The position numbers are program-made. Shown here piece after piece: positions 40,310-52,457 of a stretch of 64,000 nucleotides of DNA (positions are counted from its first letter, which is position 1; the number at the start of each line of letters is the position of its first letter). The DNA is taken from assembly GCA_951406725.2 (NCBI GenBank), contig OX597825.1, positions 44,392,001 through 44,456,000 of the forward strand, given 5' to 3'. Source of the DNA: Octopus vulgaris. Taxonomy: Eukaryota.

Positions 40310-40969
40310 AAAATCCTTCACAGCCTATGTAGCAGAATGCTATATATTTGTTGGTATTAGTACACAGGTGGACTGGTTTCTGGTTTGACATAAGTCTAAC
40401 ATTAATCAGCACATGTCAACCATTTAAAAAATCTTCCCAACCCGCCACGTTGAAATCTGCTGGCCCTCTAAATAGTTTTGCGCCAAATCAGAGCAGCCTC
40501 AGTGAGAAAACTTTCAATATGGAGCAAATATTGAGGAGCAAATATTTATATAAATATTATTATTGCCATTATTATCGAGGGCAATATAAATAATTGATAA
40601 TAACAGCAATAATATGTTGCAGGCTTATATAGCCATATATTTAACAGCAATAATATGTTGCATTATATAGCCATATATTTAAAATGCATATGATAAAGGC
40701 ACACGAATGTTAATGATAAGGGCACACGAATGCCTGCAAGACATAAAAGTTAAAAACTCTTTGCCCTCGATAATAATAGCAATAATAATATCTATATAAG
40801 TATTCACTCTTCAAACATTTGCTCCGTATTGAAACTTTTCAAACTGAAGCTGCTCTGATTTAGCGCAAAACAATTCAGAGGGCCTGCAGATTTCAAAGTG
40901 TCGGGTTAGGAAGATTTTTCAAATGATTGACATGTGCCGATGAAGGTAAGATATGAATTTTATATATGA

Positions 40970-41017
<48 letters not shown>

Positions 41018-41170
41018 GCAGGAGTGGCTATGTGATAAGTAGCTTGCTTCCCAACCACATGGGTTGAGGTTCAGTCCCACTTCGTGGCACCTTGGGCTAC
41101 TATCTTCTAATATAGCCTCGGGCCGACCTTGTGAGTGGATTTGGTAGACAGAAATTGAAAGAAGCCCGTC

Positions 41171-41211
<41 letters not shown>

Positions 41212-48800: not shown

Positions 48801-49503
48801 CGAGAACTCACGCACATACGTACATATACACACACACGTACATTCACACATACATAAGGAAGCAAATCTCTATGCATATACACATATATGCATATATGCA
48901 TATATTCATGTACACTCACACACACACACCCAAAAGAAACTAAGTAAAAATATATATACACCCGCACCCGTAGATACACCCACAGACATGTATATATACA
49001 TACGCGTACACTTCCATAGACCAACACATACAAATGCATATATATATATAATACATACACGCACATATATATACACATATACATATATATACTCATCCTT
49101 ACACCCGTACATACACATACACACATATATATGTGTATATATGCATACACATACACATGTATAAGTACATGTGTACACATACAGTGAAATCCATACACAA
49201 ACAATCACATACATACATCGACATGTATGCGTCCGTAGATGTTCATTCAAGTTCATGCGCACACACACCTGTTTATACATACATATACGCAAAGGCCCTC
49301 ACGCGTGCAAGAGTACACATAAATACATATATACGGACACACCCAGATTCAAGAACATAGGCATATGTACGTATATCCCCGCATGCACAGAAACAGGTAT
49401 ACCATTCGCATATCTACACAGTGCATGTGTATCTCTGTGCACTCGGACAAGGAGGAACTAGGAAGGCGTATACAAGTATACATACACACACACACATATA
49501 CCT

Positions 49504-49554
<51 letters not shown>

Positions 49555-52457
49555 CATACACACACATATACAAGCATATGCATATACGTACCTACGTACA
49601 CATCCGTACAAACGTGTATATACGCCCACCACTACACGCACACACATGGACATACTCATATGCACATATATGCCTATGCTCGCACGTGCACTAATGTGTA
49701 TGCGTCTGCGCAGGTATATACTTCTACGCAAGGGTACGTATAACTCCCGAAATATACAGGTCTCCACACCTATGCGTCCGAAGATTCATTCCTGCACACA
49801 CGCAAAAGGAACCTACATATTCTAAGTGTCTGTCTCAGATAGGGTGGTGTGGCGGTTATAAACCATTGTAAATAAATTATAAGTGAATAATTAGCAAGTT
49901 AAAGAGGTGTACGGGTAAATCAGAAAAGAAAGAAAAAAGTAAAAAAGTAAAAGTAGAGATGCGGCAAAATTAGAGAAGGTACGGGTACGTGTGCAGAGGT
50001 GAGTATGTGTATAAGTATATATGTATTTAGTTATGTGCGAGTTTGGGTATCTGTGCGTAGCGGTATGTATGTATATGTGTATCCCTGTCGGTACTTTCAC
50101 ACGGATGTACTATGTACATATGTGTGCGTGTGTATGTATATGCATGCATGTATGTGTGTATATGTTGACATTTTTTATGAAAAAGCAGATAAACTATTTA
50201 GCCACACACCAGCTTGGAGCAGACAACTGATATTGACCATCCGCTTACTCCCCAGATAATTAAGTCTTAATTTATGACACCCACCAATACATCCCAAAGT
50301 TTCACTAACCGGCATATATTGTTCTCTGTACCTTACTTTATCTTTATGTCCACCTTTTTATTTCTTTACCCCTTTATATTTCTTTATCCCTTTATATTTT
50401 ATTTTTATTTTTTTATTGTTATTTTTCGTCTTTATTTTTTGGCTTCTTTATCTTTATTTATTTATATTTCCATGTTTTTTCACGTCTACACTGTCACAGT
50501 ATAGCTCTAGAAATTTAGACTAAACATACGACACTCTTTGTATATTTATATACTTATATACTTTTTTGATATTTTAAAACAATTTTACTCTTTTATTACA
50601 TTTTGCACCTACTACTTTCCCTCTTTGTGATCCCAAACTCATTAAAGATTCACCCCCTCCAACTCCTTCCCTCATTATCTCAACATCCAACCTCCTCATT
50701 CTATATCGAGTGAAAAACTGTATGGACGCTTTGTTTTGGTTTTGGTATCTCGCTCAGCTGTATACGACTATGAGGATTTGCATCTCCAACGAAACTCGTC
50801 TTTTTCCCAAACTTATAATGTAATACATGCCTTTGGTGTTGTATTTGTGAGCGGCTGAGGAAGGCTATTGACATACATATTACATCAATTATGCATTGAT
50901 ATAAACTGTCTAATAAAGCCAGAAACATATGTACCGCTAAATCCTTTGCATCCTGTTTTTCTTTTGATAGTTATACCCTATCACCTACACCACTAACTGG
51001 CATGTACAGGTGCTTCCAGTTATCAAGTATTCACCCTGAATTTTTTGTACCCAACTTATATATATATACATACATCTATTTTATATATGCATATATAAAG
51101 ATGTATATATATAGATGTATCTTTACGTATGTATAGTTAGTGTATCCAAACATGAAAACACCAAGAGAAAACACAACAACGCGAGGACGTGGAACAAATA
51201 TAATATTATTGGACGCTCAGCAAGGAAGGAAAGAAGAAGGGTTGTTTACGTTTCGAGCGGAGCTCTTCGTCAGAAACATAGGAAAAAGAAAGATCCAGAG
51301 AAGGGAAGATGGAGGAAAAAAATCGCCAACGGTACACACGCGGTCACACATATATAGATGTATCTTAACATATATATATATATAGATAGATAGATAGATA
51401 GATGTATATGCATATTTTGATAATGGTGAGAAAGTTTTCGTCTATTTGGTGCCGGGTCTACCATTATGACAATAATAGTAACTATAGCAAATTCCTTGAC
51501 ATTACTATGGGATCATACTACTCCACCCAAGTTACAGACCTCGTTGAACTGTACCTACTCCATCAGATTCGAATACACTTCCCTAACATCAAGGGAGGTC
51601 TATATAAAGATGACACTTCGCTTGTCACGAAGGGCGTTAGTAGATCCTCTTTAGAATGATTAGAAAAGATCTACACGAATTTTTCTCTAACCTCAACCTA
51701 TATATTACTTCTGAAAATACCCACGAAACTACTAAAATCGTTTGGTTTAGGTTTAAAAGTTCAAAGTGGACAAAACCTTTCATATCCCACCAGACGGATA
51801 ATAATACCTTACGTGGGTGAAGACCTTATTTAGCTTGGGGTATCTTTGCTTTTCTTTTCCCTACCCTTTGGCGCTTTACAACTTTTTAGAGAACCCATTT
51901 CTCGTCACCACTATTCGGTCCAAAAAAAAAAAAGATTCATTCGTGAGACGTGACAGCATAGTAGAGTATACATTCACTCTCTGCGCGCGATTAGATTCGG
52001 AATGTTTGTGAGGAACCCATTGACCCAGTTTGCTGTCTTTTCCGATGGCATGCAATTGTCGATGAATGGTTGAATGACTAAATCCAAGCTTCTCTGCTAG
52101 TTCCTCAACAGTTACGATGGGATTTTGTTCCGCCAGGTTTTGCAGGACGTCCTCATTGAACTTTATAGATCTTCCAGGACGAGGCCCGTCTTCTAGGCTA
52201 TAGTTTCGAGCTCGAATTTCTGGAACCAACGTTGACACCAGCTTACGCTTTTTAATATTCACACACTTTCCGTCGTGTTGTTGCCTTTATTGCAAAATAT
52301 GTGTTCGTTTGTCACTTCTATTATAGCTTTGAACTGCACTCTTCAAAACTTGCACTAAGGTAAAATTACTATCTGTCTTTATAGCAAGTTGCTGCAGGTA
52401 TTTTATCCCGCCCCCCACCCCGTCTTTTAGTTCACGCAATTGAAAAAACCGCATTAA

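What the first reader, a model, noticed from the sequence alone, without database searches (positions are those of the whole stretch)
40362..51055. Cluster of fold-back insertions sharing one polarity
Seen: inverted repeats at 40405/40942, 41208/41764, 45308/45595, 45884/46388 and 47669/50969, plus 25471/26200 and 8294/10031 elsewhere. In each, the left arm carries the HHR (or its remnant) on the minus strand and the right arm on the plus strand, so both 3' ends face outward. One arm usually has an extra 50-115-nt extension. Established: PLEs often carry an inverted 5' pLTR. Inference: a stereotyped integration route, such as priming from both strands of the self-complementary (TA)n target, produces ORF-less palindromes that mimic MITEs.
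Basis: partly seen in the sequence, partly recalled or inferred. Interest (0 to 1): 0.7.

Follow-up and report, generated by a model that had tools for sequence, protein, structure and literature searches.

The report
Head-to-head Penelope-like retroelement stubs in (TA)n
The palindromes are real and are best read as pairs of truncated Penelope-like retrotransposon tails joined head to head inside TA microsatellites, a layout already described for this class of element, so the finding is sound but largely ordinary.

Summary
Six of the seven listed inverted repeats are real; 25471/26200 is only 19 of 21 nt, which is chance level. I found two more, giving 8 fold-backs bounded by (TA)n. Each has one arm within 0-24 nt of the microsatellite and one arm carrying a 36-377 nt extension.

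Type I hammerheads are real: 10 strict motifs against a mean of 0.1 in shuffles, plus an eleventh with a one-base insertion in its core. They occur in only 3 of the 8 fold-backs. There, all 6 arms point their 3' ends outward. No ribozyme or remnant was detectable in the other five, nor at 25471/26200.

One fold-back is 98.7-99% identical to the 3' end of a near-intact element in the same window (27312-32212). That element carries RT, a C-terminal GIY-YIG domain, the RWK, DKT and CxCX5C motifs, pseudo-LTRs with hammerheads and (TA)n flanks. These are the marks of a Hydra-clade Penelope-like element.

Inverted 5'-truncated copies, a "tail" at one end only, a (TA)n target and extension of both target strands in vitro are all in print.

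The verdict is a new member of a known kind. The mechanism is inferred, not shown. The strict rule of one tail per fold-back is the one lead worth a genome-wide census.

The parts
40308..40974 (.). Fold-back P1. Tail-like overhang 40308-40394; arms 40395-40584 / 40761-40951; 177-nt spacer. (TA)n on both sides.
   Evidence: 86% over 191 nt; IR score 421 vs shuffle max 72; overhangs 88/23. No hammerhead found.
41208..41767 (.). Fold-back P2, family A. Left copy is sense on the minus strand with a 118-nt tail (41208-41325). Right copy is sense on the plus strand and ends at (TA)n. Hammerheads at 41443-41353 (-) and 41649-41738 (+). Turn-around near 41545.
   Evidence: (434 of 440). [quoted passage not shown] Junction detail.
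45254..45594 (.). Fold-back P3. 55-nt overhang on the left (45254-45308); arms 45309-45594 around a roughly 14-nt centre. (TA)n on both sides.
   Evidence: (278 of 286). No hammerhead found. Assigned to the same class by anatomy only.
45813..46387 (.). Fold-back P4, family B. 72-nt tail on the left (45813-45884); arms 45885-46387 with a 10-nt loop. Hammerhead at 46003-45926 (-), and at about 46268-46346 (+) with a 1-nt insertion in the core (CTGAAAGA).
   Evidence: (496 of 503). The tail is homologous to the P5 tail (45814-46044 vs 50810-51043, 74%).
47668..51057 (.). Fold-back P5, family B. Left copy ends at the TA-rich run (47669); arms 47669-48641 / 49980-50969. The 1338-nt spacer is CA-rich on the plus strand. 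88-nt tail on the right (50970-51057). Hammerheads at 47788-47700 (-) and 50850-50938 (+).
   Evidence: (96.5% over 992).
8283..10071 (.). Fold-back P7. 81-nt arms 8288-8368 / 9955-10035. The left arm lies 5 nt from a TA-rich run; there is a 36-nt overhang on the right before (TA)n. The interior holds CA-rich tandem repeats.
   Evidence: (96% over 81). No hammerhead found.
11322..11803 (.). 189-nt overhang on the left; IR 11511-11803; the right arm ends at (TA)n.
   Evidence: IR score 132 vs shuffle max 42. The overhang 11329-11476 matches a solo copy at 61944-62089 that also abuts (TA)n (73%).
44555..45219 (.). IR 44579-44842. Overhangs 24 nt on the left and 377 nt on the right; the right one includes a 100-nt tandem duplication.
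   Evidence: searches (82% over 270; score 288 vs 33), and reading. The CTGATGA heptamers in its arms point inward, but no hammerhead fold goes with them.
27312..32212 (+). Near-intact family A element, the likely parent kind of P2. Upstream pseudo-LTR with hammerhead 27434-27524. ORF 27672-30497 (941 codons, stop to stop), then one in-frame stop and about 40 more matching codons. Downstream pseudo-LTR with hammerhead 32093-32183. Ends at (TA)n 32213.
   Evidence: GIY-YIG 24.2 bits, cut-off 22.6; RVT_1 21.7 bits, below its cut-off; 27314-27559 vs 31955-32218, 92.8%.
42384..44496 (+). 5'-truncated solo PLE copy, family C. GIY-YIG ORF end 43240-43788; hammerhead 44373-44455; (TA)n on both sides. 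A second family C copy lies at 26260-27293 (+) with a hammerhead at 27163-27248.
   Evidence: GIY-YIG E 3e-4; Rfam Hammerhead_1 25.5 bits. 42437-42567 matches the family A ORF at 29016-29146 (65%).
46871..47616 (-). Small ORF-less partial tandem, family D. 161-nt direct repeats 46871-47031 and 47456-47616 (99%). One hammerhead at 47154-47064 (-).

Best explanation
The cluster is a nest of insertions of Penelope-like retroelements (PLEs; at least family A is of the Hydra clade) into (TA)n microsatellites. By its repeats, and by one named protein hit from Octopus sinensis, the genome is probably a cephalopod's.

Each fold-back is two 5'-truncated copies of the same element's 3' end, joined head to head. 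Both 3' ends, with the hammerhead a few tens of nucleotides inside where one exists, therefore face the flanking (TA)n. This part is shown for three fold-backs.

The rest is inferred. A fold-back is made in a single integration event, not by two hits and not by later rearrangement. The element's GIY-YIG nuclease opens both strands of the self-complementary target, and each 3' OH primes reverse transcription at an internal site of the template RNA. One cDNA starts at the proximal site ("short" end) and the other at a distal site 36-377 nt further on ("long" end, the published tail). When one polymerase runs out of template it switches onto the other cDNA, or onto itself, at a few bases of complementarity and copies back out.

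Equal stopping points give a near-perfect palindrome (P2, P3, P4). Unequal stopping points leave a spacer (P1, P5, P7, P8).
For: Identity:
- P2's arms are 98.7-99% identical to the 3' pseudo-LTR of the full-length element at 27312-32212. Its long arm runs on into the sequence that lies just upstream of that element's ORF.
- That element has invariant RT motifs (YRDD and others), a C-terminal GIY-YIG domain (24.2 bits against a cut-off of 22.6), and RWK, DKT and CxCX5C motifs conserved in 17 of 17 aligned relatives. These are the marks that Craig 2021 section 11 gives for the Hydra clade, together with hammerheads and (TA)n insertion.

Hammerheads:
- There are 11 in the window. Helices I and II covary among four families. 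Rfam Hammerhead_1 is the top hit on short stretches.
- All 6 arms of the 3 fold-backs that carry hammerheads point outward.

A single event with two different ends:
- 8 of 8 fold-backs have exactly one near-flush end and one extended end.
- The short end of family A is also the 3' end of the solo full-length copy.
- P4 and P5 share short and long ends within a few nucleotides but have different centres, so they are independent events.
- Arm identities range from 82 to 99%, so the events are of different ages.

Published support:
- Inverted 5'-truncated copies and a tail at one end only.
- A PLE protein cleaves and extends both target strands and starts reverse transcription at two internal sites that bound the tail.
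Against: - Only 3 of the 8 fold-backs carry a hammerhead or can be tied to a PLE by homology. P8 has one related solo copy. P1, P3, P7 and P9 are assigned by anatomy alone.
[quoted passage not shown] That does not by itself predict one short and one long end.
- The near-zero loops of P2, P3 and P4 sit at short hairpins that already exist in the element. This is what snap-back of a single cDNA would also give.
- Target-site duplications cannot be read in (TA)n.
- Nothing outside this one window could be examined, and the assembly could not be checked against reads.
- The RT match to Pfam RVT_1 is below the curated cut-off, and I built no RT phylogeny.
Confidence: 0.62

Rival explanations
1. Snap-back (self-priming) of a single cDNA. 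One strand is primed; the nascent cDNA folds back on a short internal hairpin and copies itself; the far end is then trimmed or halted at the short site and joined to the other (TA)n end.
For: P2, P3 and P4 have centres of 0-17 nt. P4 turns at a CTC..GAG hairpin also present in its relative P5. P2 shows a triple TTTACAAC slippage at the turn. Arkhipova 2013 inferred self-priming from palindromes at inverted junctions.
Against: Copying a single cDNA back should give two identical ends, yet 8 of 8 fold-backs have unlike ends. An added step is needed, such as nuclease resolution at the tail or a block by bound protein. Four of the 8 fold-backs have spacers of 157-1586 nt, which fit two cDNAs of unequal length better.
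Confidence: 0.25
2. Palindromes formed after insertion. An ordinary truncated copy next to a long (TA)n is duplicated in inverted order when the microsatellite forms a hairpin or breaks and repair folds back.
For: (TA)n is prone to cruciforms and breaks (general knowledge, not tested here). The region is dense in (TA)n.
Against: Repair synthesis would copy the whole 3' end and the flank, giving equal ends and duplicated flanking sequence. Instead the ends are unlike in 8 of 8, and both abut (TA)n directly.
Confidence: 0.06
3. True DNA-transposon MITEs or foldback elements with a TA target.
For: They have inverted repeats, no ORF and TA-rich flanks. The window does hold real elements of this kind: 5025-5813 with an 8-bp duplication AAACTTTC, and 10231-10376 with 15-nt terminal repeats abutting (TA)n on both sides.
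Against: In the 8 fold-backs the repeat is not terminal on one side (36-377 nt overhang). In families A and B the overhang is the element's own sequence. The arms of three are PLE 3' ends with outward-facing hammerheads. For P1, P3, P7 and P9 this rival is less firmly excluded.
Confidence: 0.04
4. Assembly artefacts, i.e. chimeric or missed-adapter long reads giving false palindromes.
For: PLE tandem and inverted structures are known to trouble assemblies (Craig 2021). P2 and P4 arms are more than 98% alike.
Against: Arm identities range from 82 to 99% and include indels. Unlike ends in every case, and direct junctions with (TA)n, are not what a read artefact would give. The same anatomy is published from other genomes.
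Confidence: 0.03

Closest known systems
Hydra-clade Penelope-like elements (Craig, Yushenova, Rodriguez and Arkhipova 2021; section 11 read in full)
   Same: [quoted passage not shown] RWK and DKT motifs, a CxCX5C linker, and no pair of cysteines between the GIY and YIG motifs. Hammerheads are present and insertion is into (TA)n. Molluscs are among the listed hosts.
   Different: The copy here spans 4.9 kb with a 941-codon ORF, against the published under 3 kb and the roughly 700 aa of most relatives (522-880 among the 39 hits). The difference comes from asparagine-rich inserts. Its hammerheads have a 51-60 nt helix II region and fall below Rfam's cut-off. I built no phylogeny.
Canonical PLE insertion anatomy: pseudo-LTRs, an adjacent inverted 5'-truncated copy, and a 30-40 bp tail at one end (Arkhipova 2013 passages; Craig 2021 passages and Fig. 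2 legend)
   Same: Head-to-head orientation, a tail on one of the two inverted ends only, short palindromes at the inverted junction, and AT-rich or microsatellite targets.
   Different: Here both copies are short stubs, so the unit has no ORF at all. The tails are 36-377 nt rather than 30-40 bp. In this window 3 of 7 hammerhead-bearing insertion units are such stubs.
In vitro integration by the Anolis Poseidon PLE (Frangieh et al. 2024; main text read)
   Same: Both target strands are cleaved and extended. Reverse transcription starts at two internal RNA sites that bound the tail. Targets are AT-rich. The protein is predicted to form a dimer.
   Different: It belongs to a different clade (Penelope/Poseidon). 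No start-site difference between strands was seen in vitro, and complete fold-back products were not reported in what I read.
L1 twin priming (recalled; no L1 paper was read)
   Same: The second target strand primes a second cDNA during one integration event, giving an inverted arrangement.
   Different: Twin priming inverts a different, more 5' segment of the same RNA. Here both arms are the same 3' segment, so the product is a palindrome rather than an inversion.
MITEs and foldback DNA transposons
   Same: Short, ORF-less, with inverted repeats and TA-rich flanks.
   Different: The repeat is not terminal on one side. The arms are retroelement 3' ends with ribozymes. There are no readable target-site duplications.

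Membership tests
Penelope-like element, EN+ (Hydra clade) | Reverse transcriptase domain | tested here: met
   Pfam RVT_1 scores 21.7 bits, E 1.8e-4, on residues 210-500. That is below the 29.6-bit cut-off. However D280, R375-D376-D377 (YRDD) and other RT motif columns are invariant in 17 of 17 aligned relatives. I did not test by phylogeny whether the RT is PLE/TERT-like.
Penelope-like element, EN+ (Hydra clade) | C-terminal GIY-YIG endonuclease | tested here: met
   Pfam GIY-YIG scores 24.2 bits against a cut-off of 22.6, E 4.3e-5, on the last 92 residues. Y862, Y875, G877, R885 and H889 are invariant. The ORF has one in-frame stop about 40 codons before the end seen in relatives.
Penelope-like element, EN+ (Hydra clade) | Clade marks: RWK motif, DKT in place of DKG, CxCX5C linker, no CCHH inside GIY-YIG | tested here: met
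   RIRWK, PADKT and CKCRIKSRC were read in P0001. R56-W57, D143-K144 and C841/C843/C849 are invariant. There is only one Cys between the GIY and YIG motifs. The marks are as listed in Craig 2021 section 11. Its supplementary alignment was not seen.
Penelope-like element, EN+ (Hydra clade) | Pseudo-LTRs carrying a hammerhead ribozyme | tested here: met
   27314-27559 vs 31955-32218 is 92.8% identical. Hammerheads lie at 27434 and 32093.
Penelope-like element, EN+ (Hydra clade) | Insertion into (TA)n | tested here: met
   All 7 hammerhead-bearing units are bounded by (TA)n or TA-rich runs.
Penelope-like element, EN+ (Hydra clade) | Short element (under 3 kb) | tested here: not met
   The full-length copy spans 4901 bp, enlarged by Asn-rich inserts absent from 14 of the 16 aligned relatives. 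Such inserts are known in other PLEs. Craig's wording is "generally short", so this is not a strict criterion.
PLE head-to-head inverted insertion with one-sided tail | Both arms are the 3' part of one element, 3' ends outward, with an extension on one end only | tested here: met
   Shown for P2, P4 and P5. For P1, P3, P7, P8 and P9 only the unlike ends and the (TA)n flanks are shown.
MITE / TIR DNA transposon | Inverted repeats at both extreme termini, next to a target-site duplication | tested here: not met
   One side has a 36-377 nt overhang that is not repeated, in 8 of 8. Duplications cannot be read inside (TA)n.
Non-LTR retrozyme (tandem hammerhead repeats giving circular RNA) | Two or more direct copies of the ribozyme in tandem | tested here: not met
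   In the fold-backs the two ribozymes are on opposite strands. Family D is a partial tandem with one ribozyme.
Type I hammerhead ribozyme | CUGANGA and GAAA cores, three helices, cleavage after UH | tested here: met
   10 motifs against 0.1 expected. Helices I and II covary among 4 families, and the helix II region folds as one hairpin. Rfam RF00163 matches over model positions 1-45 at 25.5 and 19.5 bits, below the gathering score of 34. Self-cleavage was not tested.

The most novel reading that the evidence does not exclude
The rule of one short and one long end per fold-back (8 of 8 here) is a footprint of coupled dual priming. A dimeric PLE particle opens both strands of (TA)n and starts two cDNAs at two different internal sites of one RNA, or of an RNA pair held together by the palindromic helix III of the hammerhead. 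The trailing polymerase then turns around on the leading cDNA. If so, the spacer should always continue the short-ended copy. Composition hints at this for P5 and P7. Fold-backs in genomes would then record the still unsolved second half of PLE integration.
Probability: 0.2. Interest if true: 0.55.

Novelty: new member of a known kind. Interest (0 to 1): 0.3.

Why it matters
- Annotation. ORF-less PLE fold-backs look like MITEs or unclassified TIR elements to tools driven by inverted repeats. Their hammerheads escape Rfam's cut-offs. Repeat censuses of cephalopod-like genomes may therefore misfile them.
- Mechanism. How PLEs complete integration is still open in the papers I read. A genome full of dated, independent fold-backs with defined short and long ends offers a cheap natural data set for testing both-strand priming against self-priming.
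- Genome stability. Near-perfect palindromes of 0.3-3 kb inside unstable (TA)n tracts are potential sites of hairpin RNA and of breakage. I did not test this.

Tried and rejected
- Whole-window Rfam scans, at gathering scores and at E up to 10, gave no hammerhead. Only miRNA-like hits appeared, which simply reflect hairpins and TA/CA repeats. I rejected those as gene calls.
- A scan allowing one core mismatch with a stricter helix II added no motifs (7 hits). Permissive Rfam scans of P3 and P1 found no hammerhead. By eye, P1 has a CTGATTA/CCGATGA heptamer at the arm ends and a possible degenerate fold running into the tail. I do not count it.
- The CTGATGA heptamers in P9 point inward and have no fold. 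I treat them as chance.
- MAFFT misaligned the ribozyme cores, so I counted helix pairs by script and built no covariance model.
- Pfam on the whole 941-residue ORF gave nothing. Only sub-regions scored.
- A sequence search of the Protein Data Bank (PDB) gave no match.
- Literature searches, and passages of the 2020 retrozyme paper and the 2026 Octopus vulgaris repeat paper, turned up no description of ORF-less PLE fold-backs as MITE mimics, and none of twin priming for PLEs.
No genome-wide census was therefore possible.
- Structure prediction, complex prediction and the atlas search were not used, because the protein's family was settled by motifs.
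Full report
**What is in the sequence**

The window has no N. It is AT-rich and holds 30 runs of (TA)8 or longer.

Inverted repeats were checked three ways: the repeat finder, blastn of the window against its own minus strand, and self-reverse-complement alignment of each unit.
- 40395-40584 / 40761-40951: 86% over 191 nt, 177-nt spacer.
- 41326-41765: 434 of 440.
- 45309-45594: 278 of 286.
- 45885-46387: 496 of 503.
- 47669-48641 / 49980-50969: 96.5% over 992 nt, 1338-nt spacer.
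- 8288-8368 / 9955-10035: 78 of 81.

The seventh, 25471/26200, is only 19 of 21 nt. Shuffled segments of similar length reach that score, so I drop it.

I then scored every stretch of 80-6000 nt lying between two (TA)n runs, 25 in all (5 other stretches were skipped for length). Six have inverted repeats far above their shuffles. Two listed fold-backs (47668-51057 and 8283-10071) are split by internal TA runs in that scan and are added. A seventh segment above its shuffles (46675-47651) owes its score to TA-rich low complexity and is not counted. This gives eight fold-backs, which I call P1-P5 and P7-P9.

In 8 of 8 fold-backs one arm ends 0-24 nt from the microsatellite. The other is followed by 36-377 nt that is not part of the repeat before the next (TA)n. 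Left/right overhangs:

| Fold-back | Left | Right |
|---|---|---|
| P1 | 88 | 23 |
| P2 | 118 | 2 |
| P3 | 55 | 0 |
| P4 | 72 | 0 |
| P5 | 1 | 88 |
| P7 | 5 | 36 |
| P8 | 189 | 0 |
| P9 | 24 | 377 |

The extension lies on the left in five and on the right in three, so it has no fixed genomic side. The one symmetric unit bounded by (TA)n is 10231-10376. It has 15-nt terminal repeats that abut (TA)n on both sides, and it looks like an ordinary MITE.

**The ribozymes**

Rfam found no hammerhead in the whole window, either at gathering scores or at E up to 10.

My own scan required:
- the CUGANGA and GAAA cores;
- at least 4 of 5 pairs at the base of helix II;
- a closed helix III followed by UH;
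- helix I of at least 4 consecutive pairs, or 6 of 8.

It found 10 motifs, against a mean of 0.1 and a maximum of 1 in 30 first-order Markov shuffles. An eleventh, in the right arm of P4, has a one-base insertion in the core.

All eleven share an unusual build: helix III is C-NNNN-G, and the helix II region is 51-60 nt, folding as one long hairpin. Across four sequence families the strands of helices I and II differ but stay complementary. Examples for helix I are CUUUC/GAAAG, UUUUAG/CUAAAA, GCGG/CCGC and CCUACG/CGUAGG.

On short stretches Rfam's type I hammerhead model is the top hit over its whole length at the same coordinates. It scores 25.5 bits (E 1.6e-4) and 19.5 bits (E 0.017), below the gathering score of 34 because of the 50-55 nt insertion.

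The helix III hexamers CAUAUG, CAAUUG and CGUACG are self-complementary. Cervera and de la Peña 2014 describe this for PLE ribozymes thought to act as dimers, together with an extra base at the 5' end of stem II, which family B also has (passages).

**Polarity**

Hammerheads occur in 3 of the 8 fold-backs (P2, P4, P5). In these the left arm carries the ribozyme on the minus strand and the right arm on the plus strand, 6 of 6 arms.

P1, P3, P7, P8, P9 and the rejected 25471/26200 pair have none. Permissive Rfam scans of P3 and P1 also found none. In P9 such heptamers even point inward.

**What the arms are**

The window holds a near-intact element at 27312-32212 (+), bounded by (TA)n.
- Its upstream 246 nt recur at its 3' end (92.8%), each copy with a hammerhead. 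This is a pseudo-LTR pair.
- Its frame is open for 941 codons (stop to stop), followed by one in-frame stop and about 40 further codons that match relatives.
- The last 92 residues match Pfam GIY-YIG above the cut-off. Residues 210-500 match RVT_1 below it.
- A search of the large protein set found 39 relatives, mostly of about 700 residues. The best has 46% identity. None has a useful name except an Octopus sinensis gene model, 72% identical over 40% of the query.
- In an alignment with 16 of them the RT motifs, RWK, ADKT, CxCX5C and the GIY-YIG residues are invariant.
- Craig et al. 2021 define the Hydra clade of PLEs by exactly these marks, by absence of the CCHH motif, by canonical hammerheads and by insertion into (TA)n, with molluscs among the hosts (section 11).
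- The element here is longer than their "generally under 3 kb" because of asparagine-rich inserts. Arkhipova et al. 2013 describe such inserts in rotifer PLEs (passages).

Links between the fold-backs and this kind of element:
- P2's two arms are 98.7% and 99% identical to the last 214-226 nt of this element.
- P2's near-flush arm ends where the solo element ends ("short" end, about 32 nt past the ribozyme cleavage site).
- P2's extended arm continues for 118 nt through the sequence that, in the full-length copy, lies between the pseudo-LTR and the ORF ("long" end).
- P4 and P5 belong to a second family. Their short ends lie within a few nucleotides of each other, their extensions are homologous (74%), and their centres differ. 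They are therefore independent events with the same two kinds of end.
- P8's extension matches a solo copy at 61944-62089 that also abuts (TA)n.
- Two 5'-truncated solo copies with GIY-YIG ORF ends (26260-27293 and 42384-44496) and a small partial tandem (46871-47616) complete the set.
- Of the 7 insertion units that carry hammerheads, 3 are fold-backs.

**Mechanism**

Shown: the arms are the same 3' segment in opposite orientation, 3' ends outward, directly against (TA)n, with unlike ends. Arm identities of 82-99% indicate different ages.

Inferred: each fold-back arose in a single integration event.

Two published ideas apply.
- Arkhipova 2013 read palindromes at inverted junctions as self-priming.
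- Frangieh et al. 2024 showed that a purified PLE protein cleaves and extends both target strands, and that it starts reverse transcription at two internal RNA sites whose interval is the genomic tail (main text).

The centres of P2, P3 and P4 are 0-17 nt and sit at short hairpins native to the element. That fits either a snap-back or a switch onto a second cDNA.

The unlike ends in 8 of 8 favour two separate initiations. A single cDNA copied back on itself should give equal ends, and so should post-insertion repair. If each end chose its start site independently, eight mixed pairs out of eight would have a probability of at most 0.5^8. The two starts therefore seem coupled.

In P5 the spacer has the same strand composition as the inner part of the short-ended copy. 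This hints that the short-ended cDNA runs ahead and the long-ended one turns around on it. It is a hint only.

I put both-strand priming at about 0.6, snap-back with trimming at about 0.25, and the remainder on later rearrangement, true MITEs or assembly error.

**Comparison with what is known**

Already published for PLEs:
- the inverted 5'-truncated copy;
- the head-to-head preference;
- a tail at one of the two inverted ends;
- the (TA)n bias;
- the difficulty these structures cause in assemblies.

Cervera and de la Peña 2014 had also noted ribozyme pairs on opposite strands 100-700 bp apart.

Not met in what I read or in searches:
- an explicit account of units made only of two stubs;
- how frequent such units are (3 of 7 here);
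- tails as long as 36-377 nt;
- the strict rule of one tail per unit;
- a hammerhead with a 51-60 nt helix II in this clade.

Craig's supplementary files, which may list such ribozymes or mollusc families, were not seen.

The fold-backs fail the MITE test because the repeat is not terminal on one side. They fail the retrozyme test because the ribozymes are inverted, not tandem. The window also holds a true MITE with an 8-bp duplication (5025-5813), which makes a useful contrast.

**Limits**

- Only this window could be examined.
- Five of the eight fold-backs are assigned by anatomy rather than by homology.
- No reads were available to check the assembly.
- Ribozyme activity and the integration route remain untested.

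**Verdict**

The thing itself is a new member of a known kind. Interest is about 0.3, with the rule of unlike ends as the lead worth following.

Noticed in passing
window 27163-27248, 27434-27524, 32093-32183, 41353-41443, 41649-41738, 44373-44455, 45926-46003, 46268-46346, 47064-47154, 47700-47788, 50850-50938: These type I hammerheads have a 51-60 nt helix II hairpin and a C-NNNN-G helix III. They are invisible to Rfam in whole-window scans and fall below its gathering score on short stretches. The helix III hexamers are mostly self-complementary, as expected for ribozymes that act as dimers.
   Followed up: partly
window 27672-30617 (+): The ORF of the full-length Hydra-like element has long asparagine-rich inserts between the RT and the endonuclease. 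These are absent from 14 of the 16 aligned relatives. It also has one in-frame stop at 30495-30497, after which the frame still matches the relatives' C-terminus.
   Followed up: partly
window 5025-5813: An inverted-repeat element with 260-nt arms, flanked by an 8-bp duplication AAACTTTC. It has a run of TTAGGG-like telomeric repeats at about 5510-5556, next to the inner end of the right arm. It is not in (TA)n and looks like a true MITE.
   Followed up: no
window 10231-10376: A 146-nt unit with 15-nt terminal inverted repeats that abut (TA)n on both sides. It is the only symmetric inverted-repeat unit among the segments bounded by (TA)n.
   Followed up: no
window 41015-41171, 45613-45784, about 11090-11271 (-), and the companion repeat at 41821-42100, 46408-46610, 10851-11080 (-): Short SINE-like repeats whose head looks tRNA-like (by eye) are themselves bounded by (TA)n on both sides. 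Either their tails seed the microsatellites or they use the same target. This was not tested.
   Followed up: no
window 8380-9290 and 48440-49700: The interiors of fold-backs P7 and P5 are long CA-rich, microsatellite-like tracts on the plus strand, next to the short-ended arm in both. P7's interior contains tandem repeats of roughly 290 nt.
   Followed up: no
window 3-3417 (-), 16092-19364 (-), 22809-23522 (-): ORFs with Pfam RVT_1 and zf-RVT matches. These are LINE-type retrotransposon remains, unrelated to the PLE cluster.
   Followed up: no
window 44826-45025: A 100-nt tandem duplication sits at the outer end of the right arm of fold-back P9. It resembles the partial tandems typical of PLE insertions.
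   Followed up: no
window 27553-27560 and 32210-32213: In family A the RNA just past the short end reads TTTATAAT, which could pair with a (TA)n primer. The sequence past the long end (GATTGAAT) could not. With only two families to compare, I give this no weight.
   Followed up: no
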